The notes below the pieces were generated by a model, which searched no databases, had not been told where the DNA came from, and saw nothing but the letters and a program-made list of their open reading frames with translations. Both the position numbers and the translations under genes were made by a program. Below, piece after piece: positions 4,678 to 36,533 of a DNA stretch of 36,533 nucleotides. Within the stretch, counting starts at the first letter, position 1, and every line of letters begins with the position of its first letter. The stretch comes from Patescibacteria group bacterium (GTDB lineage Bacteria > Patescibacteriota > Gracilibacteria > UBA1369): contig JAHJEW010000098.1 of the NCBI GenBank assembly GCA_018825335.1, positions 1-36,533 on the forward strand. Direction: 5' to 3'.

Positions 4678-4806
4678 TTCGGAAGTTTTACCTCATTATT
4701 ATGCCATATAATAAAGATGGCACCCGTAAAGTCCAAATGAAGGTAACATTCTTCTTAAATCAGCTCCAATATGCTAAAATTCATAGAAACATAACAAAAA
4801 ACTTAA

Positions 4807-7559: not shown

Positions 7560-8852
7560 ATGACGACTGCAAGCGTACATCCAATGGACGCCCTTATCCT
7601 GAAAATGGGTGATTTTCATATGCCTGTGCCCGGAGAACTGGTTGAGGGTCAGGTGGTTGCTGTTTTTAAAAATAAAATTCTTCTGGATATCGGAGGCATG
7701 ACAACGGGCATGATTAGCGGCCGTGAAGCCAAGGATACCGAGGATACATTGAAAAACGTCAATATCGGCGACACTCTTTCAGCCTATGTAATTGAAGGCG
7801 AAAATGATGAAGGATATATTGTTTTGTCCTTAAGAAAGGCCAATCAGGAAAAAACGTGGAAGAAATTTATCGATGCCCATGAGAATTCCGAGGTAATCAA
7901 GGTAAAAGCGAATGAAGCGAATAAAGGCGGTCTATTGCTTGAAATCAACGGTATTAAAGGTTTTATCCCTGTTTCGCAGCTGGCACCAATGCATTATCCG
8001 CGCGTTAACGACGCGGATGCAAACCAGATTCTTGCAAGACTGCAAAAGCTGATCGGAATTGAATTCAGTGTGAAGATTATCAATATTGATAAGGAAAACG
8101 GTAAGCTGATTCTTTCCGAGCGCGCCGCCATGGAGGAACAGCGCAGGGATGCTCTTAAGCAGCTTAATGTCGGAGATACGGTCAAGGGTAGAATCAGCGG
8201 AATTGTTAAATTCGGTATATTTGTGGCTTTTGACGGGCTTGAGGGTCTTGTGCACATTTCCGAAATCGCATGGGGACATGTGAAAAATCCGGCCGATTAC
8301 GGAAAACTCGGGGATGAGGTGGAAGTGCAGGTTATAGGTGTGGACGGGGATAAAATTTCACTTTCAATGAAACGCCTCGTGCCGGATCCGTGGCTTGAGG
8401 CAGCCAAAATGTACAAGATCGGTTCGATTGTGGAGGGTGAAGTCAACCGCATGACGCCTTTTGGTGTGTTTGTTAAGCTTAATGATGAAATAAACGGTCT
8501 GATTCATGTTACTGAAATTTCGGAGGAACCCATTTCTGATCCATCACAGGCTTTGAAGTTGGGTGATGTTGTAAAAGCCAAGGTAATCGCCGTCGAACCG
8601 GATGAACACCGCGTAGGTCTTTCGATAAAAGCTTTGACGGAGAAGAAAAAGTCGGTAAAGAAAAAGAAGGTCGCAAGTGAGGAATCTTCAAAAGAAGAGG
8701 CTGTGGAGGCTAAGAGTGATGTGCCCCCGGAGACTGCGGGTGAAGTTGTAGAGGCGGCCGCCGCCGAAGAAAAGGAGAAAAAGGTTGTGAAGAAGAAGGC
8801 GGTTCGGAAAAAGGCTAAAGCTAAGGCTAAATCAGTAAAAACTGAAGAGTAG
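7560..8852 (+). CDS. rpsA: 30S ribosomal protein S1 (four S1 domains, Lys/Glu/Ala-rich tail)
   Basis: S1 repeats: KGFIPVSQL, FGIFV..G.EGLVHISEI, FGVFV......GLIHVTEI. Confidence 0.92.
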   Translation: MTTASVHPMDALILKMGDFHMPVPGELVEGQVVAVFKNKILLDIGGMTTGMISGREAKDTEDTLKNVNIGDTLSAYVIEGENDEGYIVLSLRKANQEKTWKKFIDAHENSEVIKVKANEANKGGLLLEINGIKGFIPVSQLAPMHYPRVNDADANQILARLQKLIGIEFSVKIINIDKENGKLILSERAAMEEQRRDALKQLNVGDTVKGRISGIVKFGIFVAFDGLEGLVHISEIAWGHVKNPADYGKLGDEVEVQVIGVDGDKISLSMKRLVPDPWLEAAKMYKIGSIVEGEVNRMTPFGVFVKLNDEINGLIHVTEISEEPISDPSQALKLGDVVKAKVIAVEPDEHRVGLSIKALTEKKKSVKKKKVASEESSKEEAVEAKSDVPPETAGEVVEAAAAEEKEKKVVKKKAVRKKAKAKAKSVKTEE

Positions 8853-25673: not shown

Positions 25674-25699
25674 AGCGCACTTCGTTTTGCTGCGTGCGT
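25674..25699 (+). repeat. REP-like 26-bp hairpin repeat, copy 1
   Basis: AGCGCACTTCGTTTTGCTGCGTGCGT, 22/26 identical to the copy at 32221. Confidence 0.65.
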
Positions 25700-25739
25700 G
25701 GTTGAAAGAGGAAAAACTCACTTACGAATGGTGAGGGTG

Positions 25740-25828: not shown

Positions 25829-26659
25829 TCAGTTGGTCCCGAGGGGGATCACGCTGACCGTTGCTGCGCCGCCGCCGAAGGCGACGGCGCAGCCCGACGC
25901 CGACCCGAAGTCGGCGTAGGTGGGGGCTCCGGCCGCCCCCGAGAAGGTGGCATGGCCGGTGTCCCAGGACACCGCGCCAACCACCGCACCGACGACCTTG
26001 ACGGTCTCGGCGCACTTTCCGGCGGCGAACACCACGGATGCGACCGTGGTGTTCGCCGTGGTGGACATCTTTAGGGTTTGGCACCCCCAAAGTCCACTGG
26101 TTGCCCCGTCGGCGTAGGCGTCGCTGACGGCGAGGTAGGCATTGGGATCGTTCGAGGCCGGGGGGCCGTTGAACGAGCACAGTTGGTAGTTGGTGACAGT
26201 GCCACCCGTGCTACCGCCGGTGCCGCCAGTGCCGGTGCTGCCCGTGTTGCAGGCGAACTGCGCCGTGGTGTGCTCGCACACCATCTCGCAGATGCCCGTC
26301 GAGGTCTCGAAGACCTCGCAACCGACGCCCGGGGCGCCCTGGGCGCCCGCGGCACCCGGCGGGAGCTTGATGCTCTCGCCGTTTTCGCATGCCACGACGA
26401 TGGTTCCATCGTCGAGCTGCGTTGCCGTGGACACCACACAGGTGCCCTTGGCGACGTCGGTGCTGGACAGGACGTCGCCGTCCTCGTCCCTGCACACGCG
26501 CATCGAATTGCCATTCTCGTCCTGCTCGTACGAGCAGGACGAGAAGTCGTCGCCGCAGCCCGCGAGGGCCGCAACGACGAGCAGGAGGGTGGTGATGAGG
26601 GCCGCCTTGGCGGCCCTCGCCTTTTTTGCCCCGCAGGGGGGGCGGGTGGCATTCGCCAT
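25829..26659 (-). CDS. GC-rich Cys-containing lipoprotein with short collagen-like and Gly/Thr-rich linkers
   Basis: AAGGAG-N9-ATG (MANATRPP), LAGC lipobox, PGAAGAQGAPG, GSTGTGGTGGSTGG. The first 99 codons of the listed ORF are probably leader. Confidence 0.78.
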   Translation of the reverse strand: MANATRPPCGAKKARAAKAALITTLLLVVAALAGCGDDFSSCSYEQDENGNSMRVCRDEDGDVLSSTDVAKGTCVVSTATQLDDGTIVVACENGESIKLPPGAAGAQGAPGVGCEVFETSTGICEMVCEHTTAQFACNTGSTGTGGTGGSTGGTVTNYQLCSFNGPPASNDPNAYLAVSDAYADGATSGLWGCQTLKMSTTANTTVASVVFAAGKCAETVKVVGAVVGAVSWDTGHATFSGAAGAPTYADFGSASGCAVAFGGGAATVSVIPLGTN

Positions 26660-26949
26660 TGTCTCAATCTCCTTCCCCTGGGAGGGGGAACACCGCGCAC
26701 TATGCGCAGTGGCGCCCCTCCGTTCGGGGCACGCAGCTACCAGGGATGATCGGGTCGGACGGCTGCTAGAGCGCGTCGGGTCCGGATCCGTGGCAGGTGT
26801 GTGCCCCGAGGAGGGAAAGGGTTTGGGAGTGTGGCTTATCGCCACAAAAAAGGGAAATTGTGTTTGCTTTCGCAAACTTCGCTGCCAGTTTTTATTAGCG
26901 TGCTGGCGCACGCGGGATCTCGCTTGCGCAAAATCTGTTCGTAAGTGAG

Positions 26950-26961
26950 TTTTCAAAGGTC
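26950..26961 (-). promoter_or_regulatory. boxA-like motif, cassette 1 leader
   Basis: GACCTTTGAAAA on the minus strand, directly after a CGCCC/GGGCG hairpin and overlapping the inverted-repeat arm. Confidence 0.55.
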
Positions 26962-27123
26962 AATGCGCCCGAAGGATTTGACTCCGAAAGGGCGACTTTT
27001 CTTATTTATCCACGTTTTGCTGCTCATAAAAAATGGTAAAGCTTTATGGGACGCGGCATAGGCCGTGGCCCGATAAAACCTTATTGATCCGTTTTTTTGA
27101 GCATGTGAGTAAACAAGGAGAGG

Positions 27124-27152
27124 AATGTATCATATTCCCCTATTTCTGTCAA
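27124..27152 (-). promoter_or_regulatory. sigma70 promoter driving cassette 1
   Basis: TTGACA-N17-TACATT with extended -10 TG. Confidence 0.72.
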
Positions 27153-27531
27153 GCCACATCATTGTTGGATGATGAGCCGGGCAGCTGCCTGTTTAAATGC
27201 GAGGCAGGCGGGAATATTACAATGATTTTTGAGGATAAGTCAAAATATTGTTTTAGGTTTGTCAAAAGGTTTTTGCAGGTAGGGATCGTTTGCCAAAATT
27301 TTTTGCATGGGAAAGGGCCGCTTCATGTTATGAAGCGGCCCATCGGCGCACCTTGTTGTCCCGAATTAACGGGGCGTTAAGGGCGCCATTCCCGATCTTT
27401 TTTGCTTTGGCTTACCTCCTTTCCGGCGGGCGAGGGAGCTTTCACTCCCCCGCCCCATGCTCACGGTTGCCGTCCGCGTGGTCTTTTTTCTCACAGCTGG
27501 CTGGGCTGTAAGTCACCCGGTAGCGGTAGTG

Positions 27532-30500
27532 CTACCAGGTGATACGGATGGCGTAGTACGTGCATCCGTTCAGTGAGACGGTGTACGTGGTGTTGACCAC
27601 GTTTACCGTCGCGGGGGTGTACCCGCTCCCCTGCACCTCGAGGGTGCTGCCGCCCCAGGTGGGGGGCAGGGAGTAGGGCGAGCACCGCCGCTCCACGGAC
27701 ACCGGTGCCACCGACGAGGTGAACACCAAGAGTCCGTTGTTCTCCCAGGCCATTGCCCGGTCGCCGGCGGCGTAGGTGCCGCTGACGTTTCCGGACGAGC
27801 AGTTCCAGTCATCGGAAGTGCTCGCCGCGGGGTCGATCGTCGTTCCTCCGGAGAAGAACTTGACCGACTTGTAGCAAGAGTCACCGATAATGGTGACGCC
27901 CGCCGGGCCCTGCGGCTGCTGTTGCAGCGCGCAGATGCCCCCGACGCAGGTCTCACCTACGAGGCATGCGTTGCCGCACGCTCCGCAGTTGGCCTCGTCG
28001 CTCGCGAGGTCGGCGCAGGCGCCCCCGCAATTGGTGTACCCTTGCGAGCACGCCGTTTTGCAGGCGCCCTGGTCGCAGACCAGGCCTTGCCCACAGACCG
28101 CGCAGGCGGGTCCGCAGGCCAATGGATCTTGCATGATGCTTTCGCACCATAGATCCAGGTCGCAGTCCAGCGTGCCTTGGGAGCACGACAGGACACACGA
28201 CCCGCCCGAGCAGACTTGGTCGTTGACGCATGCGTTGCCGCACGCGCCGCAGTTCTGCTCGTCGCTCGACAGGTAGACGCAACTGCCGGAGCAGTTGGTC
28301 TGGTTTAGACCGCACGTGCTCTTGCACGCGCCGTCCGTGCACACCTGCCCTTGCGGACAGATGGCGCAACCCGGACCGCAGGCGGTCGGGTCACTCAGGA
28401 TATGCTCGCAGACGAAGTCTGCATCGCAGTCCTGTTCGCCTTGCTTGCACGACACCACGCAGGTGCCGCCCGAGCAAAGCTGGTCTCCGATGCATGCGTT
28501 TCCGCATGCACCACAGTTGTCCTCGTCCGAGGACACGTAGACGCAACTGCCGGAGCAGTTGGTCTGGTTCGGACCGCACGTGCTCTTGCACGCGCCGTCC
28601 GTGCACACCTGCCCTTGCGGACAGATGGCGCAACCCGGACCGCAGGCGGTCGGGTCGCTTTGGATCTGCTCGCAGACATTGTCTGTGTCGCAGTCCATCA
28701 TCTGCTCCGGACACGAGAGCACGCAGCTCCCGCCGGAACAGATCTGGTCTCCGACGCATGCGTTGCCGCACGCGCCGCAGTTGTCCTCGTCGGAGGACAG
28801 GTAGACGCAACTGTTGGAACAGTTGGTCTGCCCTGTGGCGCACACTGACTTGCAGGCGCCACTCGAGCACACCTGCCCCTGCGGGCAGATGGCGCAACCC
28901 GGACCGCAGGCGGTCGGGTCGCTTTGGATCTGCTCGCAGACATTGTCTGTGTCGCAGTCCATCATCTGCTCCGGACACGAGAGCACGCAGCTCCCGCCGG
29001 AACAGACCTGATCTCCGACGCATACGTTGCCGCACGCGCCGCAGTTCAGGGGGTCGCTGCCCAAGTGTACGCATGCGAGTCCGCATACGCTTAGCCCTTG
29101 AGAGCAACCATAGGTGCAGGTGCCGTTGTCGCACACCTGCCCCGGTCCGCACACATTGCAGCCGAGGCCGCAATGTAGCGGATCCGACCAGATGTAGTCA
29201 CACACTTGGTCGTTGCCGCAGTCGAGCGTGCCGGTGCTGCAATGCAGCTGGCACGTCCCGCCGAGGCACTGCTGGTCGCCGACACATTGAGTGCCGCACG
29301 ACCCGCAATTGGCTTCGTCGGTCTTGAAGTCGACGCAGCCGCCATTGCACAGCGACATGCCTTGTGAGCAGTTCGCCACGCATTGGCTCTTCTGGCAGAC
29401 CTGTCCCTGCGCGCAAACGGCGCAGAGAGGTCCGCAGTGCGACGACGTCGAAGTGATGTCGTCGCACAGGTTGTCCGCGTCGCAATCGGCCTGCCCCGTG
29501 GGACAGGCGAGCGCGCAGACGCTGGCCAGACACTGCTGGTCGCCCGGGCATACCGTGCCGCAGGCTCCGCAGTTGGCCTCGTCGGAGATTGTGTTTACAC
29601 ACTGACCTCCGCACTCCGTCTGCCCTTGCGAACAGACGGTCTTGCAGGCACCGAGGTCGCAGACCTCATTGACTGCGCAGTCCGTACAGGACGGCCCGCA
29701 GAACGCTGGATCCTGCATGATGTCATCGCAGATCCAGTCGTTGTCGCAATCCTTGGTGCCTTGCGGGCAGAAGAGCCCGCAGATTCCAAGGCTGCACTCC
29801 TGCTGGCCCGTGCACGCGGTGGTGCAGGAGCCGCAGGCCACCTCGGACGACTGCGTGTTGACGCAGCCGTTGAGGTTGGCGCAGTACTGGAAACCGCTTA
29901 CGCAGTTATCCAGGCATGTGCCGTTTTGACACACCTGCGTGCCGGAGCATTGGGCGCACAGAGGCCCGCAATGCGACCCGGACGAGGTAGTGTCGATGCA
30001 CTGGCCGTTCTTGTTACAGTCGGCCGTGCCCTGCGCGCAGCTGACGGGCTCACAGAACCCGCCAACGCACGCCTCCGTGATAGCGCATTTGCTACCACAA
30101 CCTCCGCAGTTGAGCTTGTCGCTCATGACTGCGGCACAGAAGTCCTGGCCGCCGCTCTGGCAGACCATTTCTCCTTCTGCGCAGTCCAGCACGCAGGCGC
30201 TGAACGCGCACGTCTCCCCTCCGGCGCAGGCGTTTCCGCATGCGCCGCAGTGGAGGGGGTCAGTGGCGAGATCCGCGCATGCGTTGCCGCACGCCGTCTC
30301 GCCCGACTTACAGTTCGAGTAGCAGGTGCCTCCCGAGCAAAACTCATTGAGGCCGCATGCGTTTCCGCACTGGCCGCAATGAGCGGGACTGCTAAGGAGG
30401 TTTGCGCAACCTCCATTACAGTCCACTGTCCCCGAGGGACAGTTGTCCGCGCACTCGCCCGAGGCGCAGACCTGCCCATCCGCGCACGGATCACAGTCCG

Positions 30501-30807
30501 TGCCGCAGTGGGCGACATTGGACCAGATGTCTACGCAGGACTCTGATCCGTCGCACACGGCGGTGCCGAGGGCGCAGTTCGCGCCGCCCGATCCGCCGGT
30601 GCCGCCGGCAGCGTTTCCGCCACCGCCGGTCTGGGACCCGCCGTTTCCGGTGGAGCCCCCGGTGGCCGTTGAGCCACCACCACATGGGGGGCGACTGCCA
30701 TCGAGGCATGCAACCTCCCCGGGAGCGACCTCCGCCTGGGGGTCGCTCCAACATCCCGCCGTCAGCGCGAAAATCGCGCAGGCGGCGGCCACTTTTTGCC
30801 ATTTCAT
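27532..30807 (-). CDS. giant Cys-rich repeat lipoprotein (MXAN_6577-like/Stig1-like modules)
   Basis: AAAGGAG SD before MKWQK, TAGC lipobox, Gly-rich linker, 20 tandem 8-Cys modules (D..NCGACGNAC...C..G.C) and a unique C-terminal domain. Confidence 0.85.
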   Translation of the reverse strand: MKWQKVAAACAIFALTAGCWSDPQAEVAPGEVACLDGSRPPCGGGSTATGGSTGNGGSQTGGGGNAAGGTGGSGGANCALGTAVCDGSESCVDIWSNVAHCGTDCDPCADGQVCASGECADNCPSGTVDCNGGCANLLSSPAHCGQCGNACGLNEFCSGGTCYSNCKSGETACGNACADLATDPLHCGACGNACAGGETCAFSACVLDCAEGEMVCQSGGQDFCAAVMSDKLNCGGCGSKCAITEACVGGFCEPVSCAQGTADCNKNGQCIDTTSSGSHCGPLCAQCSGTQVCQNGTCLDNCVSGFQYCANLNGCVNTQSSEVACGSCTTACTGQQECSLGICGLFCPQGTKDCDNDWICDDIMQDPAFCGPSCTDCAVNEVCDLGACKTVCSQGQTECGGQCVNTISDEANCGACGTVCPGDQQCLASVCALACPTGQADCDADNLCDDITSTSSHCGPLCAVCAQGQVCQKSQCVANCSQGMSLCNGGCVDFKTDEANCGSCGTQCVGDQQCLGGTCQLHCSTGTLDCGNDQVCDYIWSDPLHCGLGCNVCGPGQVCDNGTCTYGCSQGLSVCGLACVHLGSDPLNCGACGNVCVGDQVCSGGSCVLSCPEQMMDCDTDNVCEQIQSDPTACGPGCAICPQGQVCSSGACKSVCATGQTNCSNSCVYLSSDEDNCGACGNACVGDQICSGGSCVLSCPEQMMDCDTDNVCEQIQSDPTACGPGCAICPQGQVCTDGACKSTCGPNQTNCSGSCVYVSSDEDNCGACGNACIGDQLCSGGTCVVSCKQGEQDCDADFVCEHILSDPTACGPGCAICPQGQVCTDGACKSTCGLNQTNCSGSCVYLSSDEQNCGACGNACVNDQVCSGGSCVLSCSQGTLDCDLDLWCESIMQDPLACGPACAVCGQGLVCDQGACKTACSQGYTNCGGACADLASDEANCGACGNACLVGETCVGGICALQQQPQGPAGVTIIGDSCYKSVKFFSGGTTIDPAASTSDDWNCSSGNVSGTYAAGDRAMAWENNGLLVFTSSVAPVSVERRCSPYSLPPTWGGSTLEVQGSGYTPATVNVVNTTYTVSLNGCTYYAIRITW
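27922..30576 (-). repeat. intragenic tandem repeat: 20 modules, mostly alternating 45+43 aa (264-bp period)
   Basis: Near-identical DNA blocks 264 bp apart, e.g. 28295 vs 28559 and 28680 vs 28944. Confidence 0.9.
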
Positions 30808-30881
30808 GGCATTCTCCTTTCGTTGTGGCACAGGGGGCGGCCCGGCGAAATCCGGATATCGCCCCCCTTAGCCGCCTGCAC

Positions 30882-31970
30882 TCAGATGCGCAAGCCCACC
30901 ATGATGGGCTTGAACTGGGGCTCGATGCCCCAACTCTTGTCCTGGCCGTCGTAGCCAGGCACCCTGTTATACGGCGTGGCGTTGACCACACCGCAAACCC
31001 CTCCCCCGATGGAGAGGTTCGGAGCCGGGTGGAACAGGACGTTCGCACACGGCTCGACCACGAACACGTAGTTCGTGGCCTGGTTCGCGAACTCGACCGT
31101 CTTGGTCGAGCTCTGAGAAAGGAACGTGTCCGGGTAGGACACGACCTCGAGACCGAGCTGGGCTCCGAGGTTTCCCTCGAGCCAGCTCAGGGGGGCCCAC
31201 GAAACGTAGGGTCCCGCGGTGAAGGAGAACTTCTCCTCCACCGAGTCTGCGTTTACTGGCTGGTTTCCGTCGAACGTCCACACGTTGGTGTGGACGTAGT
31301 TCATCGTCGCGCCCAGCTGGGCGAAGCGGTGAAGGCGGACGAGGATGTCCGCCCCGACTCCGACCGGCACGTTGGTCGCGTGCTGGTCGTTGAGCCCCAG
31401 AAGGGGGCTCATGAGGAACTGCGCCCGCTGCGACAGCGGGCTCCAGCCCTTGAGCTGGCGACCGTAGTCGTCCAGCTTCTTGTCGACGTCCTTGAGGACG
31501 TCGACCTTGGCTTCCGCGACCTCCTCGTGGGTCGCGATCTCCGCCGGAGGCGGAGGAGCCGGCAGGACCGTGAGGTCCCACGCGGCCACCAGCTCGTTCC
31601 CGTACCTGACAGTCAGGTTCGGAAACGTTCCGGCCTGCGCCGTCCAGGCGATGCCGAACTGGGCCACACCATGGAGGTGTGGCTCGTCGGTGTAGGACTT
31701 GCAGCCCAACACCTCCTCGCCCAGGCCCTGCGGCCTGATGAGGTTCTCCTCCGTCCAGGTGGAGCACTCCAACTGGGCGATGAAGAGCACGGAGAGGCGC
31801 TTCCCCTCCGTGGCCACGGCCTTGCGGCCGCTCCTAGAGTCAATCCCCTCCAAGGAGGGGACAAAGAAGGGCACGTCGGCCTTTGCCGACGCCGCAGGTT
31901 GACCTTTTGCCCATCCCGCGACCATCAAGGTCGCGGCGACGAGCGCCCAACTCGTGAAGCGTCGCATCAT
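30882..31970 (-). CDS. GC-rich secreted protein with a probable C-terminal outer-membrane beta-barrel
   Basis: Signal peptide (MMRRFTSWALVAATLMVAGWAKG), PAPPPPA linker, short helix, then alternating strands (VGVGADIL, AQLGATMNY, FSFTAGPYVSW, LSIGGGV) ending IMVGLRI. Purine-rich SD GAGGAAAGGA. Confidence 0.62.
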   Translation of the reverse strand: MMRRFTSWALVAATLMVAGWAKGQPAASAKADVPFFVPSLEGIDSRSGRKAVATEGKRLSVLFIAQLECSTWTEENLIRPQGLGEEVLGCKSYTDEPHLHGVAQFGIAWTAQAGTFPNLTVRYGNELVAAWDLTVLPAPPPPAEIATHEEVAEAKVDVLKDVDKKLDDYGRQLKGWSPLSQRAQFLMSPLLGLNDQHATNVPVGVGADILVRLHRFAQLGATMNYVHTNVWTFDGNQPVNADSVEEKFSFTAGPYVSWAPLSWLEGNLGAQLGLEVVSYPDTFLSQSSTKTVEFANQATNYVFVVEPCANVLFHPAPNLSIGGGVCGVVNATPYNRVPGYDGQDKSWGIEPQFKPIMVGLRI

Positions 31971-32157
31971 TGCTTAGCTTCCTTTCCTCTTGCTGGTCGC
32001 GGTTTCGGGCCCGGAGGGGCCATAACGCACCATGCGTTATAGTCCCCACCGCGCCGCGGGACTCACTCCATCTTTTTGTATCGGCCAATAAAAAAAATCG
32101 GCATACTCAAAAAAACGGGGCGAGTCCCACGGCAAAAAAAATATGATTCTAAAATAT

Positions 32158-32246
32158 AGCGCACTTTGCTCCGCTTCGTGCGTGGGGCGTTTTTCGCTTC
32201 TCTCACTTCGTTCGCTCCACAGCGCACTTCGCTCCGCTTCGTGCGT
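32158..32246 (+). repeat. two direct copies of the REP-like 26-bp hairpin repeat
   Basis: AGCGCACTTYGCTCCGCTTCGTGCGT at 32158-32183 and 32221-32246 (25/26 identical); stem GCAC/GTGC. Confidence 0.8.
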
Positions 32247-32257
32247 AGTAAGCCAAA

Positions 32258-32269
32258 TTGTTAAAGATC
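32258..32269 (-). promoter_or_regulatory. boxA-like motif, cassette 2 leader
   Basis: GATCTTTAACAA(TTT) on the minus strand, close to rrn boxA GCTCTTTAACAA. It lies within the inverted-repeat arm. Confidence 0.6.
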
Positions 32270-32403
32270 GCCAACTCCACCTTCTATCGCAGTGGCCGGT
32301 CGTCAAAGCATGCCTTTCCGCCCTCCGCTGGTGCGGATGGCTCCAAGTGCACTGATTTTGGCCCAATTTCCACTAGACAGGCAGGATTAAAGAATTGGAT
32401 GAG

Positions 32404-32432
32404 AGTTTAACTATATTGCGGACTTTTGTCAA
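32404..32432 (-). promoter_or_regulatory. sigma70 promoter driving cassette 2
   Basis: TTGACA-N17-TAAACT. Confidence 0.75.
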
Positions 32433-32575
32433 CCTTTTTACCGCTTTGCAGCGGTTTTGGAAAGATCGGCAAAAGCCGCAATCAGTAAACGTTAAATTTA
32501 ATGCTTCTTTTGGGCTTCCATTACAGGGCCGGCGGCGTAATAATGGCATCGGACATTATCACTAACAGCAAAGAA

Positions 32576-33706
32576 ATGAAAAAACGGCCGCGGATTGTTA
32601 TTTGCGGGAACTACGGAGCCACGAATCTTGGCGACGAAGCGATTCTGGACGGGATTCTTTCGCTGGTCAGAAGATCCATCCCAAACGCGGACATTACGGT
32701 TTTAGGCGCCAATCCGGCCGAGACGGCGGATCTTCACGGAGTAAAGAGCCTTTTTTTGCTTCCGGCGGGGGCGCGTTCGCTTTGGCGCGGGGTTTCGGGC
32801 GGCACTATTTGGCGCACTCTGGACGCAATTCGCAAGGCTGATTTGTTTATTCTTGGCGGCGGAGGGCTTTTTACGGATGAGAAGTTTATGGCTGTTTTGA
32901 TCTGGTCACTGCAGGCGCGGATCGCGCGGCTTTTTAAAGTGCCGATTTTCTGCCTGGGGCAGAGCGTAGGGCCTCTTCGGACTTTTTTCGGGCGGATGAT
33001 GACGGCGGGGGTTTTTAAACATTCTGCGGAAATTACCGTGCGCGATGAAGCTTCCCGGGATTTGCTTGTTCGTCTTGGGATCGATGACGCGCTTGTGCTG
33101 GCCGATCCGGCGTTTGTCCTTGCCGCGCCCGAGCCGCTGCCCGAGCGCACAGAGCCTTACGTGGTTTTGTCGGTGCGTCCGTGGAAAATTATGGGCGGCG
33201 AGAGCTTTCGGGATAAGCTTTTGTGTCAGGTTTTAGCGAAATTCGTTGATCGTCTCTGGATGGAGAATGGCCTAAAGACCATTATGGTGCCTTTTCAGGT
33301 CATGGTCGATAACGACGCGAACGAGCTGGAGCGCATTTATGATCTTCTGGAAGACAAAAAGGCCGCGGAGATTTTCTCCTACAGCAGCGATTACAAGAAG
33401 GTTATGGAGCTTATAGCGCGTTCAACGGCCGTGGTTGGGATGAGGCTTCACTCTCTCATTTTCGCGTCGATTTGCCACACGCCGTTTCTGGCGCTATCGT
33501 ACAGCGAAAAAGTGCGAAGTTTTTGCGCGCAGGTCGGCATGGAGGACTTTATTCTTGGTCTTGATGAAGTGGACCTTGCTGCGCTTATGGTCAGGTTTGA
33601 ACGAATTTTGTCTGAACGGGATGCGCTGGTTTTGCGGCTGGACAACAGGGTTTTGCATTTGCGGGCAATGGCGCTTGAGCATGAGGGGATTTTAGAGAAG
33701 TTTTAA
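32576..33706 (+). CDS. csaB: polysaccharide pyruvyl transferase (CsaB-like)
   Basis: GNYGATNLGDEAIL, GGGGLFTD, GQSVGP, VRDEAS, ADPAF, GMRLHSLI, LSYSEKV. Start uncertain (32501, 32543 or 32576). Confidence 0.8.
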   Translation: MKKRPRIVICGNYGATNLGDEAILDGILSLVRRSIPNADITVLGANPAETADLHGVKSLFLLPAGARSLWRGVSGGTIWRTLDAIRKADLFILGGGGLFTDEKFMAVLIWSLQARIARLFKVPIFCLGQSVGPLRTFFGRMMTAGVFKHSAEITVRDEASRDLLVRLGIDDALVLADPAFVLAAPEPLPERTEPYVVLSVRPWKIMGGESFRDKLLCQVLAKFVDRLWMENGLKTIMVPFQVMVDNDANELERIYDLLEDKKAAEIFSYSSDYKKVMELIARSTAVVGMRLHSLIFASICHTPFLALSYSEKVRSFCAQVGMEDFILGLDEVDLAALMVRFERILSERDALVLRLDNRVLHLRAMALEHEGILEKF

Positions 33707-33760
33707 TAGGTTTTTATTTTTTGATAATAATGTTCCGTTACAATGTCGGTACATTTTTGG

Positions 33761-33789
33761 TTGATTAATTTATTATATAAGTTTACTAT
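33761..33789 (+). promoter_or_regulatory. promoter of the TA operon
   Basis: TTGATT-N17-TACTAT. An imperfect palindrome AATGTtCCG..CGGtACATT at 33729-33755 may be an operator. Confidence 0.5.
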
Positions 33790-33794
33790 ACTAT

Positions 33795-34082
33795 ATGAAA
33801 GTATTACTAAGTAAACCTTCAATGGCTACAATTTCTTTTAAGGCCGACGATAGTTTTAAGAAAAAACTTGATGCTCTTGCGGAGAAAAAGGGCATTAATA
33901 CTTCCGCTTTTATCAAGCTGATTCTTACTAAAGAGGTCGGCTGTGAGCTTGCAGAGATGACTGAAAACGGGTTAACGGTTGCGGAGGAGCTGGAAATTTT
34001 GGACTCTGTGAAAAACGACAAGGTTCTTGGACCTTTCTCAAATACCAATGATCTATTGAATGCTTTGAAAGATTCAAAATGA
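33795..34082 (+). CDS. RHH-type antitoxin (RelB/DinJ-like)
   Basis: ATISFKAD..FKKKL..LA...GIN.S.FI ribbon-helix-helix pattern, GPFSNT.DL C-terminus, ATGA overlap with the toxin. Alternative start at 33822. Confidence 0.75.
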   Translation: MKVLLSKPSMATISFKADDSFKKKLDALAEKKGINTSAFIKLILTKEVGCELAEMTENGLTVAEELEILDSVKNDKVLGPFSNTNDLLNALKDSK

Positions 34083-34336
34083 GGATTTTTTTCACGTCGG
34101 GCTTTCAGAAAAAATTTATTAAGCTGCCACTGAATATTCAGGAGCAATTTGGCGTCAGAATTGATCTTTTTATAGAGGACTCATCGCATCCATCCCTAAA
34201 GGTTCATCCACTGAAGGGAAATCTGGCGGGACTAAGGGCTTTTTCGGTTAGCGGTGATTGTCGTGTAATTTATCGTTTATTGGATCGCGATAGTATTGAG
34301 CTAATAAGCATTGGCACACATAGTCAGATTTATTGA
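34079..34336 (+). CDS. RelE/YafQ-family mRNA interferase toxin
   Basis: F.K...KL, HPSLKVHPLKG, FSV.GD.RVIY, IGTHSQIY. Confidence 0.85.
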   Translation: MRIFFTSGFQKKFIKLPLNIQEQFGVRIDLFIEDSSHPSLKVHPLKGNLAGLRAFSVSGDCRVIYRLLDRDSIELISIGTHSQIY

Positions 34337-34570
34337 TAGGTTTTAATGGCCCGGGCCAAGTACACCAATGGTGGCAAGCCATAAAACGGTTGTCGTTCGG
34401 CGAATTTTCAGTTTTGATTTCGTTTGACTTTTGCGCCCTATTCTTGTAATGCTATCTATCCGTCACTATTGTGGCGACGATTTTTCGCGGGTCGAAGGGT
34501 CGTTGCCCGGTGGCAGCGATCTTTGATAGCCCGCATTTTGGGGCCGCCAAGGCGGCCCATTGGAGGTAGT

Positions 34571-35131
34571 ATGTTTCGTTTTTCCCATTTGTTTCGGGTC
34601 GCGTTGGCGACCCTTGCCCTGTGCCTTCTGGGCACAGGGTGCGCGGACGCCACGCCGGTCGCGAAGGCGCCGGCGGTCGCGCCGCCGACGCCCCCCGTGA
34701 AGACGGAGGGCAGGCCTGCATTACCACCCGCCCCCGCGGTCGTGCTGGCGCAGGTCAAGTCATCACCGGGCAACATGCCCGATGACATATACTCGGACAC
34801 GCTGATCCGGGTGGTGGCGTGGGCAGCTGTCGGCCCGCAGAACCTGCAGGTCGATGCGGTCACCGACCTGCCGTTGGGCGGCACAATCGTGCTGCTCAGC
34901 GAGGATCCGAACGTCGTCCTCACAACGGACGACGTCAAGCTGGCGGAGGGGCCGATGCGCCTCCGCCAGACCCAGAGCGGGGTTCAGGCGATCCTGAACC
35001 CCACCGAGGCGGAGCTGAAGAAGCTCCGCGGTGGCGAGCGGTTGCCGCTCGTCTTCCTTTTGGGAGACACCCTCTCCCCCATGGGGGAGAAGAAGTTCCC
35101 CCTCCACGTGGGGCTTGCGCGGCTGGACTGA
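34571..35131 (+). CDS. GC-rich lipoprotein with Pro/Ala-rich linker
   Basis: GGAGGT SD before ATG 34571, LLGTGC lipobox, APAVAPPTPP linker, third codon positions strongly G/C. Confidence 0.78.
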   Translation: MFRFSHLFRVALATLALCLLGTGCADATPVAKAPAVAPPTPPVKTEGRPALPPAPAVVLAQVKSSPGNMPDDIYSDTLIRVVAWAAVGPQNLQVDAVTDLPLGGTIVLLSEDPNVVLTTDDVKLAEGPMRLRQTQSGVQAILNPTEAELKKLRGGERLPLVFLLGDTLSPMGEKKFPLHVGLARLD

Positions 35132-35189: not shown

Positions 35190-35229
35190 CATGATTGCGA
35201 TTCATCACACAAAAAAAATGCGGGCTATC

Positions 35230-35892
35230 TTATCCAAACATTTCCGTTTGTCTGCTTAAGCGTGCAACCGGCTCGTACGTCCTGCGGTGAATTTCGCATA
35301 TCCCGTGCTCTTTTATGCCTTTCTGGTGCCTTTTTGTGCCGTACCCCATATTTTCATCGAAACCATAAAGTGGGAATTTTTTTGCGTATTTTTTCATTAT
35401 TTTGTCTCTTTCTACTTTTGCAATTATTGACGCGCAGGCTACTATTTTTACTTTTTCATCGCCCTTAATTACGCTCACATACGGGATTGGCATGTTGAAT
35501 TTGTCGCGACCGTCAATTATGAGCAGGTCGGGGGGCCGACGGGATTTGTCTTTTTTCAATGCTTCAAGCGCACGGGTGAATGCGCGGTTTGTGGCTTTTA
35601 TCAGCCCCAATTCATCAATCTCTTCGTGCGTGGCCGATCCAACACCAAAAAATACCTTTGTTTTTAATTTTCTGTAAATTTCCTCGCGTTTTTCCGCCGT
35701 CAGAGCTTTCGAATTTTTCAGTCCTTTAATGCGCAGATCTTTTCCCCTGAAAACGACCACCGCGGCCACTACCGGCCCCGCCCAAGGACCGCGGCCAGCC
35801 TCGTCCATCCCGCAAAAGACACGGCTCCCACCGATGTCCGGCCGCTTTACAATCGCTTCCTCCAGCACCTTTTTTATCGACAAAAAAGCCAT
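35230..35892 (-). CDS. rnhB: ribonuclease HII
   Basis: GMDEAGRGPWAGPVVAA, IIDG, IKGD, ASIIAKVERD, GYGT..H, HRRTY. Confidence 0.96.
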   Translation of the reverse strand: MAFLSIKKVLEEAIVKRPDIGGSRVFCGMDEAGRGPWAGPVVAAVVVFRGKDLRIKGLKNSKALTAEKREEIYRKLKTKVFFGVGSATHEEIDELGLIKATNRAFTRALEALKKDKSRRPPDLLIIDGRDKFNMPIPYVSVIKGDEKVKIVACASIIAKVERDKIMKKYAKKFPLYGFDENMGYGTKRHQKGIKEHGICEIHRRTYEPVARLSRQTEMFG

Positions 35893-35953
35893 AGGTTCAT
35901 ACTATGGCTTTTTGAGGGTTGGTACTAGATTGATATGCGCTGAGGACTGTGTT

Positions 35954-36499
35954 CTACTCTTCTTTCGCCGGTTCTTCGGGGGCCTTTGCGGGAGCTTCTT
36001 CAGCGGCTGCGACGGGTGCTTCTTCCACAGTCGCACCGCCCGCCTCTGCGGTTACCACCTCTTCTGCTTCTGATCCGGCCTCCTCTACAGCTTCCTCTTC
36101 CTCGTGCATGCCTTTCTTTTTCCTATGTGTCTCATCTTTTTCTGTAAGTCCGAGTTTGGCGCTTAATCGCTTGGACATTCCCGACGCGCCTCTGATGAAA
36201 TTAAGCTTTGCCCTGCGAATGCCGAATGTTTTCTTAACTTCTATTTTTGCAATGAGCGGTGAATTGACGGGGAAAATCTTTTCCACAGCAATCCCCTGCA
36301 CCACCTTGCGCACAGTGAACGTTTTACTTGCCACGTGCCCGGAGTTCAATCCTACAACCATACCTTCAAAAACCTGGATTCTTTCTTTTTCCCCCTCCTT
36401 GATTTTCTGATGTACGCGCACCTGGTATCCCGGTCTTAAAACCGGCATTTTCTTGTTTATAAACTTTTTTTCGATTTCCTGAATCAGTAAATTAGACAT
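35954..36499 (-). CDS. rplS: 50S ribosomal protein L19 with acidic Glu/Ala tail
   Basis: PGYQVRVHQKIKEGEKERIQVFEG, TFTVRK, VEKIFP, RRAKLNF. Start set at ATG of MSNLL. Confidence 0.95.
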   Translation of the reverse strand: MSNLLIQEIEKKFINKKMPVLRPGYQVRVHQKIKEGEKERIQVFEGMVVGLNSGHVASKTFTVRKVVQGIAVEKIFPVNSPLIAKIEVKKTFGIRRAKLNFIRGASGMSKRLSAKLGLTEKDETHRKKKGMHEEEEAVEEAGSEAEEVVTAEAGGATVEEAPVAAAEEAPAKAPEEPAKEE

Positions 36500-36533
36500 G
36501 TTTTTTTTGATTAAAGCCAAGCCATATTATGGA

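What the first reader, a model, noticed from the sequence alone, without database searches (positions are those of the whole stretch)
25829..35131. Cassette genes carry GC-rich, diderm-type coding and translation signals unlike the backbone
Seen: all four cassette genes are visibly much richer in GC (roughly 65% vs about 45%, by eye). They have SD-like tracts (AAGGAG, AAAGGAG, GAGGAAAGGA, GGAGGT), whereas most backbone starts follow A/T-rich SD-less sequence (e.g. aaaacttaaATG, accaaacaaatATG). All four are predicted exported proteins; Gly/Thr linkers and CGACGNAC repeats recall Myxococcota lipoproteins. No integrase or transposase is present, and the promoters sit in AT-rich native-like DNA. 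Inference: either repeated gene capture from a myxobacterial host, or genes kept tuned for host ribosomes. Either way they may predict the host of this putative CPR organism.
Basis: partly seen in the sequence, partly recalled or inferred. Interest (0 to 1): 0.85.

Follow-up and report, generated by a model that had tools for sequence, protein, structure and literature searches.

The report
GC-rich, hairpin-packed surface-protein genes
A tiny-genome bacterium keeps a few secreted-protein genes that are far richer in G+C than the rest of its DNA, packed with hairpins and carrying ribosome-binding sites its other genes lack; related genera have them at the same places, so they are a maintained gene class, not fresh loot from a host.

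Summary
Three islands (about 25.7-26.9, 27.4-32.1 and 34.5-35.2 kb) have 65-67% GC against 45.5% for the genome. Their four genes have GC3 of 0.80-0.87, against a genome mean of 0.48 (sd 0.08). All four have SD tracts and export signals, while the backbone is SD-depleted. It is not a chimera: contigs from the source run and from an independent groundwater run bridge the junctions at equal depth.

Recent capture from a myxobacterial host is not supported. GC-rich, SD-led counterparts sit at the same rnhB-CsaB locus in sister genera and in a second family. Genes 1, 3 and 4 have almost no homologues anywhere. Only gene 2 points to Myxococcota.

New findings:
- Small islands are bracketed by their own perfect 13-16 nt inverted repeats, as the 16S gene is.
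- Every island is extremely hairpin-rich. Folding z is -9 to -18 against dinucleotide and synonymous-codon shuffles. Backbone and real GC-rich genomes give about 0 to -1.6.
- rpsU carries an extended SD in five of these genomes, as in SD-blind Bacteroidia.

Best reading (about 0.45): native surface-protein genes kept as GC-rich, hyper-structured, SD-dependent mRNAs. The mechanism is untested because no RNA data were available.

The parts
25713..25728 (.). Left arm of the 16-nt perfect inverted repeat bracketing island 1 (AAAACTCACTTACGAA)
   Evidence: Score 16 against a maximum of 13 in 150 random backbone intervals.
25829..26659 (-). Gene 1: 276-aa Cys-containing lipoprotein (lipobox LAGC), SD AAGGAG 9 nt before the ATG, GC3 0.87
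   Evidence: No Pfam or NCBIfam hit. Only 3 homologues at 46-60% identity. Folding z -12.2 (dinucleotide shuffles) and -14.9 (synonymous shuffles).
26938..26953 (.). Right arm of the island-1 inverted repeat
26860..26923 (.). Native short repeat inside the island-1 bracket, upstream of gene 1. Copies lie on contigs C35, C133, C92, C46 and C95.
   Evidence: Loose ends of other contigs cluster here in 3 runs.
27393..27415 (.). Left arm of the weak, imperfect repeat bracketing island 2/3 (23 nt, 78%). A second pair lies at 27089-27105 / 32102-32118 (17 nt, 94%).
   Evidence: Not above the null in the +-200 nt test, so treat it as doubtful.
27532..30807 (-). Gene 2: 1091-aa lipoprotein with 168 Cys, made of tandem 264-nt modules. 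MXAN_6577-like / Stig1 repeats. SD AAAGGAG, GC3 0.80.
   Evidence: (NF041328 E 6.9e-173; Stig1 E 4.4e-53). Folding z -16.4 and -10.1, -11.2 and -11.0.
30882..31970 (-). Gene 3: 362-aa secreted protein with a signal peptide, an N-terminal beta-sandwich and a C-terminal 8-stranded OmpA/OmpX/OmpW-like barrel. SD GAGGAAAGGAAG, GC3 0.87.
   Evidence: pLDDT 80.8; Foldseek E 1e-6, target TM 0.6-0.72. Folding z -18.0 and -16.1.
32248..32270 (.). Right arm of the imperfect island-2/3 repeat. Two native hairpin repeats (32158-32183, 32221-32246) lie just inside it, and a third copy lies at 25674-25699.
34525..34539 (.). Left arm of the 15-nt perfect inverted repeat bracketing island 4 (GATAGCCCGCATTTT), 31 nt before the ATG
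   Evidence: The stem closes the whole island in both the MFE and the centroid fold.
34571..35131 (+). Gene 4: 186-aa lipoprotein (lipobox GTGC), SD GGAGGT, GC3 0.85. An orphan.
   Evidence: Positional counterparts in G012 and G015. Folding z -10.2 and -8.8.
35215..35229 (.). Right arm of the island-4 inverted repeat, abutting the rnhB stop codon
23724..25120 (+). Context: a VKOR-family gene and a CcdA/SfLAP-like membrane protein (disulfide-bond machinery), just upstream of the Cys-rich exported genes
32501..33706 (+). Backbone gene CsaB (polysaccharide pyruvyl transferase). It is the conserved anchor of the locus in relatives.
33795..34336 (+). RHH antitoxin / YafQ-ParE-like toxin pair between CsaB and island 4. 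It is absent at this spot in G012.
35230..36520 (-). Backbone genes rnhB (35230-35892) and rplS (35954-36520). They are the conserved anchor of the locus.

Best explanation
The islands are native, vertically inherited genes for envelope and secreted proteins: three lipoproteins and an OmpX-like barrel in the window, and more on other contigs. This small-genome, CPR-like lineage keeps them as a separate expression class.

Their transcripts are selected to be G+C-rich and densely base-paired along their whole length. The small ones are closed by a long-range stem formed from flanking inverted repeats, as the 16S rRNA precursor is. They start translation through a Shine-Dalgarno site, although the rest of the genome avoids SD.

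By analogy with Bacteroidia, where the anti-SD is hidden by bS21 and only bS21-free ribosomes read SD-led mRNAs, these genes would be read by a sub-population or state of ribosomes. Their hairpin-packed mRNAs would be long-lived and poorly accessible to SD-independent initiation and to AU-directed RNases.

Shown here: the composition, the SD contrast, the synteny, the inverted repeats, the hairpin excess and its bias to the sense strand, and the extended SD of rpsU.

Inferred: that selection acts on the mRNA, that the end stems are processed by RNase III, and that bS21 controls translation. An old transfer from a diderm, Myxococcota-like donor may be the origin of at least gene 2, but it does not explain why the features persist.
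For: 1. Real and in one genome. Logan contigs of the source run bridge all six island borders at depth 39-49, the same as the backbone. An independent 2024 groundwater run bridges three borders at depth about 5, the same as its backbone.

2. Old and vertical.
- Gene 3's family is found in 10 of 151 genomes of the order: 6 of 22 in the window's family (not counting the window's genome) and 3 of 13 in a second family. It lies within about 2-3 kb of rnhB in G026, G014 and G001 too.
- In 10 of the 12 loci it has GC3 0.68-0.88. In the 7 loci that reach AT-rich backbone the GC falls to 0.25-0.45 within 250-500 nt, and 9 of the 10 have an SD-like tract. Two paralogues (G015b, G539b) have GC3 of about 0.5 and no SD.
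- A GC-rich SD-led lipoprotein gene lies directly downstream of rnhB in G000, G012 and G015.
- Island proteins are 23-33% identical between genera, while their neighbours rnhB, rplS and CsaB are 52-68% identical. Their synonymous sites must therefore be saturated, yet GC3 stays near 0.8.

3. SD contrast.
- The backbone is SD-depleted, and so is G012 (19 of 256 starts against 12.8% of random 30-mers).
- The 16S rRNA has a canonical CCTCCT tail.
- rpsU has an extended SD (GAAAGGAGGTG-like) in 5 of 5 genomes checked. This matches the published Flavobacterium autoregulation (PMC9976891, abstract read).

4. Hairpin excess.
- Folding z is -9.8 to -18.0 for 9 island segments, against +1.4 to -0.9 for 4 backbone genes and -4.2 for 16S.
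- Controls give -0.7 to -1.6 for 7 windows of Polyangiaceae and Streptomyces DNA of equal GC, and +0.5 for the Polyangiaceae homologue of gene 2.
- Synonymous-codon shuffles give z -8.8 to -16.1, against +0.1 to +0.5 for controls.
- 200-nt windows average z -4.1 to -6.4 in the islands and -0.2 in the backbone.
- In relatives, 13 of 13 GC-rich genes (orthologues and positional counterparts) have z <= -3.2. A low-GC paralogue gives 0.0.

5. RNA level. The sense strand folds better than the antisense, beyond paired shuffles, in 9 of 9 segments from 6 of 6 genes.

6. End stems.
- Perfect 13-16 nt inverted repeats bracket 4 of the 5 testable islands of G000, and also the rnhB-side island of G012 (14 nt) and G015 (31 nt with 4 mismatches). 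Each has a different sequence, and each scores above all 150 random intervals.
- The 16S gene is bracketed by a 27-nt perfect repeat.
- An RNase III gene is present.
- Promoter-like sites lie outside the brackets, and no terminator-like site lies between the stop codon and the distal arm on the coding strand.

7. Native use is plausible. The genome has LspA and a VKOR plus CcdA-like pair next to the Cys-rich genes.
Against: - The base pairs themselves are not conserved. With the fold of G015's gene 3 laid on G539's (67% nt identity), only 25-26% of the changed pairs stay paired. That is below a permutation null of about 37%. Any selection would therefore be for structure in general, not for one fold.
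- Many stems are perfect over 8-15 bp. This looks more like a DNA-templated process than stepwise RNA selection.
- No RNA run holds the locus. Transcripts, their ends, their half-lives and their translation are all unobserved.
- The island SDs (6-7 nt) are weaker than that of rpsU (about 11 nt).
- Gene 3 is an outer-membrane-type barrel, yet no Omp85/BamA was found in a 96% complete genome. This is odd for a purely native envelope protein.
- Gene 2 is closer to a Polyangiaceae gene than to its CPR counterparts.
- Inverted-repeat brackets are missing or not significant for island 2/3 and for the gene-3 orthologues.
- Homology of the three rnhB-side lipoproteins is weak: BLASTP aligns only the lipobox region, and global identity is about 31%.
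- Gene calls and shuffle numbers (8-20 per test) are rough.
Confidence: 0.45

Rival explanations
1. DNA-level process. The hairpins arise from, and serve, templated (quasi-palindrome or fold-back) mutation. This makes the genes fast-changing contingency loci for surface proteins. High GC stabilises the hairpins, and the flanking inverted repeats come from the same process. Alternatively the excess is a neutral by-product of GC-rich DNA living in a genome that does not suppress such events.
For: - Distinct perfect hairpins (stem >= 8, loop 3-8) number 7 in island 1, 5 in island 4, 11 in island 2/3 and 8 in C79, which is 2.4-11 per kb. The same count gives at most 2 in 25 kb of backbone and at most 9 in 16.5 kb of Polyangiaceae DNA.
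- The stems share no consensus.
- The pairs turn over completely between congeneric genomes.
- Island proteins evolve about twice as fast as their neighbours.
- Both strands have extreme z.
Against: - The sense strand is favoured in 9 of 9 segments. A purely DNA-level symmetric process does not predict this.
- It does not explain the SD sites, or why GC3 stays near 0.8 against the AT-rich mutational background.
- No variant alleles were seen between two samples: only 2 base differences lay in the islands across the source run and X3.
Confidence: 0.2
2. One reading: recent, repeated capture of genes from a myxobacterial or other GC-rich host, not yet ameliorated.
For: - The composition is foreign-looking, including the UTRs and the GC-rich hairpins after the stop codons.
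- Gene 2 belongs to a family common in Myxococcota, and its best alignment is to a Polyangiaceae gene.
- Gene 3 has a diderm-type barrel fold.
Against: - Counterparts sit at the same locus in other genera and in a second family, at 23-33% protein identity, and are still GC-rich.
- Genes 1, 3 and 4 have 3, 1 and 0 non-self homologues among 5.8 billion proteins. Gene 3's family has only 20 members among 1.84 billion representatives.
- Gene 3 had 0 hits in 121 Myxococcota genomes.
- The best identity to Myxococcota is only about 38%.
- The hairpin excess is absent from real GC-rich genomes.
- The window has no mobility genes, flanking direct repeats or island-adjacent tRNA.
Confidence: 0.04
3. 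Old transfer from a diderm donor into the ancestor of the order, with the odd features being slow-decaying leftovers of no present function.
For: - The Myxococcota-type family and the outer-membrane-type barrel.
- The shared locus in many genera.
Against: - With protein identity down to 23-33%, synonymous sites are saturated, yet GC3 is 0.68-0.88 in 10 genomes.
- The hairpin excess survives synonymous-codon shuffling and is not a donor trait.
- Two paralogues in the same loci did drift to backbone GC and lost the SD. This shows what decay looks like here.
Confidence: 0.08
4. Whole-gene invertible cassettes. The flanking inverted repeats are recombination sites that flip the gene relative to an outside promoter, giving phase variation of surface lipoproteins.
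For: - Perfect 13-16 nt repeats sit exactly at the borders.
- Promoter-like sites lie outside them.
- The products are surface lipoproteins.
Against: - The repeats share no consensus.
- The genome has one tyrosine recombinase and no serine recombinase.
- 13-16 nt is short for RecA-mediated recombination (from general knowledge, not from a call).
- No strand-switch joints appeared in 4 runs, although these were contigs, which hide rare forms.
- Inversion explains neither the GC content nor the hairpins.
Confidence: 0.06
5. Assembly or binning chimera of a CPR contig with pieces of a GC-rich genome.
For: Sharp GC steps in a 134-contig metagenome-derived assembly.
Against: - There are three alternations of GC-rich and backbone DNA.
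- Independent k=31 contigs bridge every border at equal depth in the source run, and three borders in an unrelated 2024 run.
- The same architecture occurs in relatives.
Confidence: 0.01

Closest known systems
SD-blind ribosomes and rpsU autoregulation in Bacteroidia (Flavobacterium johnsoniae; PMC9976891, abstract read; PMC7797042 and PMC13000453, seen in the search listing only)
   Same: - A canonical anti-SD is present, yet SD is depleted genome-wide.
- rpsU carries an unusually long SD (5 of 5 genomes here).
- A handful of other genes have an SD.
   Different: - The phylum is different (CPR-like). That paper has no mention of Patescibacteria or 'candidate phyla'.
- Here the SD-led set consists of GC-rich, hairpin-dense genes for exported proteins.
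- Sequestration of the anti-SD by bS21/bS18/bS6 is not shown for this lineage.
rRNA precursor processing stems (RNase III)
   Same: A long-range perfect inverted repeat brackets a GC-richer, structured unit. The 16S gene of this genome has a 27-nt one, and RNase III is encoded.
   Different: The bracketed units are protein-coding. The stems are shorter (13-16 nt). Cleavage has not been observed.
mRNA stabilisation by hairpins in abundant envelope-protein genes (ompA 5' UTR, S-layer gene leaders). Recalled from memory, not from a call.
   Same: Envelope proteins whose mRNAs carry protective stem-loops.
   Different: In those cases one or two hairpins sit in the UTR. Here the excess runs through the entire coding sequence and survives synonymous shuffling, and it is coupled to a 20-point GC shift.
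Horizontally acquired genomic islands
   Same: Atypical GC and codon use with sharp borders. One gene belongs to a family typical of another phylum.
   Different: There are no mobility genes, no island-adjacent tRNA and no flanking direct repeats. The islands are syntenic across genera and families, have no near-identical donors, and show a structure excess that GC-rich donors lack.
Genome-scale ordered RNA structure of RNA viruses and phages. Recalled from memory, not from a call.
   Same: Strongly negative folding z-scores across coding sequence, without conserved individual pairs.
   Different: These are chromosomal bacterial genes, not RNA genomes.
Agrobacterium T-DNA.
   Same: Genes kept in a bacterium with expression signals unlike its own, bounded by short repeats.
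   Different: T-DNA borders are direct repeats with a known transfer machine. Nothing here shows transfer.

Membership tests
Recently acquired genomic island (HGT) | Composition unlike the host genome | tested here: met
   GC 0.65-0.67 against 0.455. GC3 lies 3.8-4.7 sd above the genome mean.
Recently acquired genomic island (HGT) | Absent from close relatives at the same locus | tested here: not met
   GC-rich counterparts lie at the rnhB/CsaB locus in G012, G015, G539, G026, G014 and G001. No same-genus relative is held.
Recently acquired genomic island (HGT) | Mobility genes, tRNA target or flanking direct repeats | tested here: not met
   No integrase or transposase in 29 ORFs. The only tRNA is at 1600-1676. 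The flanks carry inverted, not direct, repeats.
Recently acquired genomic island (HGT) | Close homologues in a donor lineage | tested here: not met
   Genes 1, 3 and 4 have 3, 1 and 0 non-self hits. Gene 3 had 0 hits in 121 Myxococcota genomes. Gene 2 is about 38% identical to a Polyangiaceae gene.
NF041328 MXAN_6577-like cysteine-rich protein (gene 2) | HMM score above the curated cut-off (100 bits) | tested here: met
   567.7 bits, E 6.9e-173, 10 stretches. Pfam Stig1 scores 178 bits.
8-stranded outer-membrane beta-barrel (OmpA-TM / OmpX / OmpW type; gene 3 C-terminal half) | Fold: 8 long antiparallel strands closing a barrel | tested here: met
   AF2 model with pLDDT 80.8. Foldseek hits 1bxw, 1qj9, 3qra and 2f1v with E 1e-6 to 4e-4 and target TM 0.60-0.72. 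This is a predicted model, not a solved structure.
8-stranded outer-membrane beta-barrel (OmpA-TM / OmpX / OmpW type; gene 3 C-terminal half) | Host cell has an outer membrane and BAM (Omp85) to insert it | tested here: not met
   PF01103 was not found in the 96% complete genome, while it rang in 7 diderm control genomes.
8-stranded outer-membrane beta-barrel (OmpA-TM / OmpX / OmpW type; gene 3 C-terminal half) | C-terminal aromatic or hydrophobic beta-signal | tested here: inconclusive
   G000 ends in ...VGLRI. Of the 20 other family members listed, 13 end in F and 1 in W.
Bacterial lipoproteins (genes 1, 2, 4) | Signal peptide with a lipobox Cys, and a signal peptidase II in the genome | tested here: met
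   Lipoboxes LAGC, TAGC and GTGC. LspA PF01252 scores 103.6 bits on C95. Lgt was not searched.
Bacteroidia-type SD-blind translation with bS21 autoregulation | Canonical anti-SD present but SD depleted genome-wide | tested here: met
Bacteroidia-type SD-blind translation with bS21 autoregulation | rpsU carries an extended SD | tested here: met
   G000, G012, G014, G015 and G026: 5 of 5 in which rpsU was found. It was not found in G481.
Bacteroidia-type SD-blind translation with bS21 autoregulation | 3' tail of 16S sequestered by bS21/bS18/bS6; bS21-free ribosomes read SD mRNAs | not testable with these tools
   Needs ribosome structures or biochemistry.
RNase III-processed long-range stems (rRNA-like) | Complementary flanks that enclose the unit | tested here: met
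   4 of 5 testable G000 islands, plus G012 and G015, score above 150 of 150 null intervals. The stem is present in the MFE and centroid folds.
RNase III-processed long-range stems (rRNA-like) | Both arms transcribed and cleaved | not testable with these tools
   No RNA holder was listed.
Invertible DNA switches (invertons) | Inverted repeats at both ends | tested here: met
Invertible DNA switches (invertons) | Dedicated invertase and a shared repeat consensus | tested here: not met
   One tyrosine recombinase and no serine recombinase in the genome. The repeat sequences are unrelated.
Invertible DNA switches (invertons) | Both orientations present in the population | tested here: inconclusive
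   No strand-switch joints in 4 runs, but only contigs were available.
Integron cassette | Neighbouring IntI integrase and an attC at the 3' end of each cassette | tested here: not met
   No integrase in the window. The repeats flank the genes rather than forming a compact 3' attC. No attC model was run.

The most novel reading that the evidence does not exclude
The islands may be expression units kept for use in a G+C-rich diderm host rather than in the symbiont itself. On this reading they are delivered as nuclease-resistant, end-closed, hairpin-packed RNA (or single-stranded DNA) and read by host ribosomes.

This would explain several things at once:
- an organism that avoids SD and lacks BAM conserves SD-led, GC-rich genes for lipoproteins and an outer-membrane barrel;
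- the whole unit, not just the codons, is GC-rich;
- one of the genes belongs to a family typical of Myxococcota.

The products would act as self-supplied receptors or anchors in the host envelope.
Probability: 0.07. Interest if true: 0.97.

Novelty: categorically new. Interest (0 to 1): 0.82.

Why it matters
If it holds, a whole order of ultra-small bacteria runs two kinds of genes side by side. The bulk is AT-rich and SD-less. A small conserved set of surface-protein genes is written in a different 'dialect': 20 points more GC, hairpins throughout the coding sequence, SD-led, and stem-closed at the ends.

Three consequences follow.
- It cautions against reading compositional islands in symbiont genomes as recent host-derived transfers, or as predictors of the host.
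- It extends the Bacteroidia-type SD-blind, rpsU-SD arrangement to a CPR-like lineage and points to a candidate regulon for specialised ribosomes.
- It offers the strongest case I know of where nucleic-acid structure shapes entire bacterial coding sequences. The genes concerned are a giant Cys-rich adhesin-like lipoprotein and an OmpX-like barrel in a cell without BAM, which are the likely tools of host attachment.

All of this can be tested with metatranscriptomes, structure probing and recoded genes.

Tried and rejected
- **Assembly chimera.** Rejected.
- **Insertion into terminator hairpins.** I considered that the split arms of a hairpin had become the flanking repeats, because two repeats look like A-tract + stem ... 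stem + T-tract. I set this aside. The rnhB-side island has such a bracket in three genera with unrelated sequences, a native short repeat lies inside the island-1 bracket, and no empty site could be examined because G000 has no same-genus relative.
- **A-specific retroelement (DGR-like) mutagenesis.** Rejected. The AT skew in the islands is near zero on the coding strand.
- **Codon periodicity as the cause of the fold excess.** Rejected by the controls from GC-rich genomes and by synonymous-codon shuffles.
- **Conserved RNA fold.** Tested and not found. The 41 'compensatory' pairs come from a method that chooses compatible pairs, and I do not count them.
- **Donor search in named genomes.** (gene 2) found no relative. 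One search (RNase HII) returned 49 loci, almost all from unrelated phyla (three were Patescibacteria/Saccharibacteria MAGs at 38-46% identity), and nothing close enough to name the family or show the locus. Its Polyangiaceae and Streptomyces loci served only as GC-rich controls and as a handle for Myxococcota.
- **Expression.** No RNA holder was listed, so nothing can be said about expression.
- **tRNA set.** The 33 tRNAs found include several C34 species but decide nothing.
- **Lys codons.** AAA:AAG is 9:42 in the island genes and 122:75 in four backbone genes. The idea that this gives resistance to the neighbouring YafQ-like toxin is only a thought.
- **Literature.** Searches found nothing on GC-rich structured genes in CPR. 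PMC9297842 (passages read) reports that uL30 is often missing in CPR and that the anti-SD motif is detected in only 48% of Parcubacteria. Supplementary files were not opened and may hold per-lineage data bearing on this.
- **Taxon.** I could not name the organism. 'CPR-like' rests on three results: a 1.15 Mb genome at 96% completeness, a phylum sample whose listed genomes are 0.7-1.4 Mb, and no L30 and no Omp85 found.
  - In one search my frames for C79 and the C42 plus-strand ORF were wrong, and those rows are dropped.
  - In one search the C118 query began one codon early.
  - The hairpin counts count nested loops more than once. The distinct counts come, and the control counts are upper bounds.
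  - Which ORF is real in the C42 island is undecided.
  - Of the 7 island genes of G000, 5 have N-terminal export signals (genes 1-4 and C118). I read the C79 product by eye as having a C-terminal membrane segment and did not check it further.

Full report
**What the window is.** The window is a whole contig (C107) of a 1.148 Mb assembly in 134 contigs. The assembly has 45.5% GC and is scored 96% complete with 0.7% contamination. Its backbone is housekeeping: RuvB, ClpB, S1, an AddA-like helicase-nuclease, RmuC, IF-2, ProRS, dTDP-sugar genes, an SLH/M23 protein, VKOR, CsaB, RNase HII and L19. The listed genomes of the same phylum sample are 0.7-1.4 Mb. L30 and Omp85/BamA were not found. This fits a CPR/Patescibacteria-like monoderm, but I could not name the taxon.

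- Three islands stand out at 65-67% GC: about 25.70-26.85, 27.40-32.05 and 34.54-35.20 kb. They hold 13 of the 21 500-nt windows with GC >= 0.60 in the whole genome.
- With the true starts, GC3 is 0.87, 0.80, 0.87 and 0.85. The mean of 969 naive ORFs is 0.483 +- 0.084.
- Only 5.5% of 944 naive starts have any SD 4-mer upstream. That is less than the 9.6% of random 30-mers.
- Genes 1, 2 and 4 have lipoboxes, and gene 3 has a type-I signal peptide.
- 'CGACGNAC' is a peptide motif, present 5 times in gene 2. It is not a DNA repeat.

**It is not a chimera.** Contigs built independently (k=31) from the probable source run bridge all six island borders. Their depth is 39-49, the same as the backbone. 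One 6,932-nt contig runs from inside gene 2 through gene 3, CsaB, the toxin-antitoxin pair and island 4 into rnhB. An unrelated 2024 groundwater run holds 69% of the words. It bridges three borders (27215-28125, 31878-32607, 33487-34640) at depth about 5, equal to its backbone. Two more runs hold pieces of both island and backbone at low depth.

**It is not recent capture.**
- G000 is alone in its genus. Its nearest relatives are other genera of one family.
- In G012 the order is gene-3 orthologue, CsaB, a GC-rich lipoprotein gene, rnhB, rplS. G015 has the mirror image, with extra Cys-rich lipoprotein genes.
- A profile of gene 3's family finds it in 10 of 151 genomes of the order. That is 6 of 22 in the same family (not counting G000) and 3 of 13 in a second family. 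It lies within about 2-3 kb of rnhB in G026, G014 and G001 as well.
- In 10 of the 12 loci the gene has GC3 0.68-0.88. In the 7 loci that reach AT-rich backbone the GC falls to 0.25-0.45 within 250-500 nt, and 9 of the 10 have an SD-like tract. Two paralogues (G015b, G539b) have backbone-like GC3 of about 0.5 and no SD.
- Island proteins are 23-33% identical between genera. The neighbouring rnhB, rplS and CsaB are 52-68% identical. At that distance synonymous sites are saturated, so a GC3 near 0.8 must be actively held.
- Genes 1, 3 and 4 have 3, 1 and 0 non-self hits among 5.8 billion proteins. A full HMM scan of 1.84 billion representatives finds only 20 members of gene 3's family. Gene 3 has no hit in 121 Myxococcota genomes.

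**What does point to Myxococcota.** Gene 2 is an NF041328 'MXAN_6577-like' protein (E 6.9e-173). That family rings in 74 of 121 sampled Myxococcota genomes, 20 of them above the cut-off. In the window's own phylum it rings in 6 of 301, with 3 above the cut-off. Gene 2 aligns at 37-39% identity over 440-505 aa to a Polyangiaceae gene. That is better than to the Cys-rich genes of its own relatives. An old transfer of this gene is plausible. It is no basis for naming a present-day host.

**What the proteins are.**
- Gene 3 folds, in a confident model (pLDDT 80.8 from a 21-sequence alignment), into a beta-sandwich plus an 8-stranded barrel. The barrel matches the OmpA transmembrane domain, OmpX, Ail and OmpW. 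This is a diderm-type fold in a genome with no detectable BAM.
- Gene 2 is a 1091-aa lipoprotein with 168 cysteines, built from 264-nt tandem modules.
- A VKOR gene and a CcdA-like gene lie just upstream, and LspA is encoded. The cell therefore has what it needs to process and oxidise such proteins itself.

**New finding 1: brackets.**
- Island 1 is flanked by a perfect 16-nt inverted repeat (25713-25728 / 26938-26953). Island 4 is flanked by a perfect 15-nt one (34525-34539 / 35215-35229).
- Two GC-rich islands on other contigs have their own: C42 with 16 nt, and C118 with 13 nt perfect or 18 nt with one mismatch.
- The rnhB-side island of G012 has a 14-nt one. That of G015 has a 31-nt one with four mismatches.
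- All six score above every one of 150 random backbone intervals, and the sequences are unrelated.
- Island 2/3 has only weak pairs. The gene-3 orthologues and several islands of G012 have none.
- The one obvious analogue in the genome is the 16S gene, bracketed by a 27-nt perfect repeat. RNase III is present.
- Promoter-like sites lie outside the brackets, and no terminator-like site lies between the stop codon and the far arm on the coding strand.
- In RNA folding, the island-4 stem closes the whole 700-nt unit in both the MFE and the centroid structure.

**New finding 2: hairpin excess.**
- Against dinucleotide shuffles, nine island segments fold with z from -9.8 to -18.0. Four backbone genes give +1.4 to -0.9, and 16S gives -4.2.
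- DNA of equal GC from a Polyangiaceae and a Streptomyces record gives -0.7 to -1.6. The Polyangiaceae homologue of gene 2 gives +0.5.
- Shuffling synonymous codons, which keeps the protein, codon usage and GC3, still leaves z from -8.8 to -16.1. Controls give +0.1 to +0.5.
- 200-nt windows average -4.1 to -6.4 inside the islands and -0.2 outside. The AT-rich spacer 26.8-27.4 kb is also structured.
- Distinct perfect hairpins (stem >= 8 bp, up to 15 bp) occur at 2.4-11 per kb in the islands. The backbone has at most 0.1 per kb and GC-rich genomes about 0.5 per kb. The stems share no consensus.
- In relatives, 13 of 13 GC-rich genes (orthologues and positional counterparts) have z <= -3.2, while a low-GC paralogue gives 0.0.
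- The sense strand folds better than the antisense, beyond paired shuffles, in 9 of 9 segments. This points to the transcript.
- Against a specific fold: between two congeneric orthologues only 25-26% of the changed pairs stay paired, below the permutation null. The property is conserved; the pairs are not.

**New finding 3: the translation setting.** The 16S rRNA ends in the canonical CCTCCT. rpsU carries an extended SD (GAAAGGAGGTG-like) in G000, G012, G014, G015 and G026. This is the arrangement described for Flavobacteria. There bS21 hides the anti-SD, and ribosomes lacking bS21 read SD-led mRNAs (PMC9976891, abstract read; that paper has no mention of Patescibacteria or 'candidate phyla').

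**Reading.** The simplest account of all this is a native, conserved class of envelope-protein genes. Their mRNAs are kept GC-rich, base-paired throughout and end-closed, and they depend on an SD in a cell that otherwise ignores SD.
- I put this at about 0.45.
- A DNA-level hairpin-templated mutation process gets about 0.2. It would act as a diversity engine for surface proteins, or be a neutral by-product. The perfect stems and their turnover speak for it, and the strand bias and SD sites speak against it.
- Leftover ancient transfer, invertible cassettes and recent capture each get under 0.1. Chimera gets about 0.01.
- The bold option is that these units are kept for expression in a GC-rich diderm host. 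It explains the BAM-less barrel and the SD, but nothing shows transfer. I put it at about 0.07.

**Limits.**
- Gene calls are naive.
- The shuffle sets are small (8-20 per test).
- Relatives are sampled, not exhaustive.
- There are no RNA data and no raw reads.
- Supplementary files were not read.

Noticed in passing
G000:C98:4440-4586 (minus); L114, L115, L116, L117: rpsU (bS21) carries an extended SD (GAAAGGAGGTG-like, or AAGGGGGTGA in G000) in 5 of 5 genomes of this SD-depleted order where it was found. This mirrors the Flavobacterium rpsU autoregulation.
   Followed up: partly
genome-wide starts: Upstream of naive starts, T peaks at -15 (0.41), A peaks at -11 (0.47), and G falls to 0.10-0.12. 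This suggests a non-SD initiation or promoter-proximal signal.
   Followed up: no
G000:C47:3821-3847 / 5588-5614: A 27-nt perfect inverted repeat brackets the 16S rRNA gene (3920-5495). It is presumably the processing stem.
   Followed up: partly
G000:C6:2741-3357 / 8191-8750: A cluster of inverted repeats (up to 27 nt perfect) frames a segment of about 5 kb. One arm resembles the short hairpin repeat seen at window positions 25674, 32158 and 32221.
   Followed up: no
window 25674-25699, 32158-32183, 32221-32246; 26860-26923; 34347-34390: Three families of short native repeats sit at the island edges, with copies on many other contigs. Contigs from other genomic contexts break off at two of these families, around 26852-26923 and 34345-34386.
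   Followed up: partly
window 35801-36000: A 200-nt window spanning the rplS-rnhB junction folds with z -10.1, although it is backbone DNA.
   Followed up: no
window 26800-27400, including ORF 27033-27380: The AT-rich spacer between islands 1 and 2/3 is also strongly structured (z -3.9 to -5.0) and holds two promoter-like sites on the minus strand. The 115-aa ORF has no family hit and may not be a gene.
   Followed up: partly
window 33795-34336: An RHH / YafQ-ParE-like toxin-antitoxin pair is inserted between CsaB and island 4 in G000 but not in G012. Island genes use AAG rather than AAA for Lys (42:9), while four backbone genes use 75:122.
   Followed up: partly
G000:C42:10039-10731; C118:1047-1823; C79:1-700: There are further GC-rich, hairpin-dense, SD-led islands on other contigs. 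C118 encodes a lipoprotein. C79 lies at a contig end and has the SD AAGGAGG. The coding strand of the C42 island is undecided.
   Followed up: partly
G000:C46:43746-43761, C79:734-746 and 1020-1032, C69:8367-8379: A palindromic motif (CCACCTT.AAGGTGG-like) recurs in the genome. It could be a protein-binding site or a REP-like element.
   Followed up: no
L014, L017, L020 (G167, G258): These loci in genomes of the same phylum or class (G167, G258) are 64-68% GC over their 3.1-3.4 kb. G167 also carries NF041328-type genes, and its DNA folds with z about -4.
   Followed up: no
window 36000-36100 (rplS 3' part): L19 has a long acidic Ala/Glu-rich C-terminal tail, as do its orthologues in G012 and G015.
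   Followed up: no
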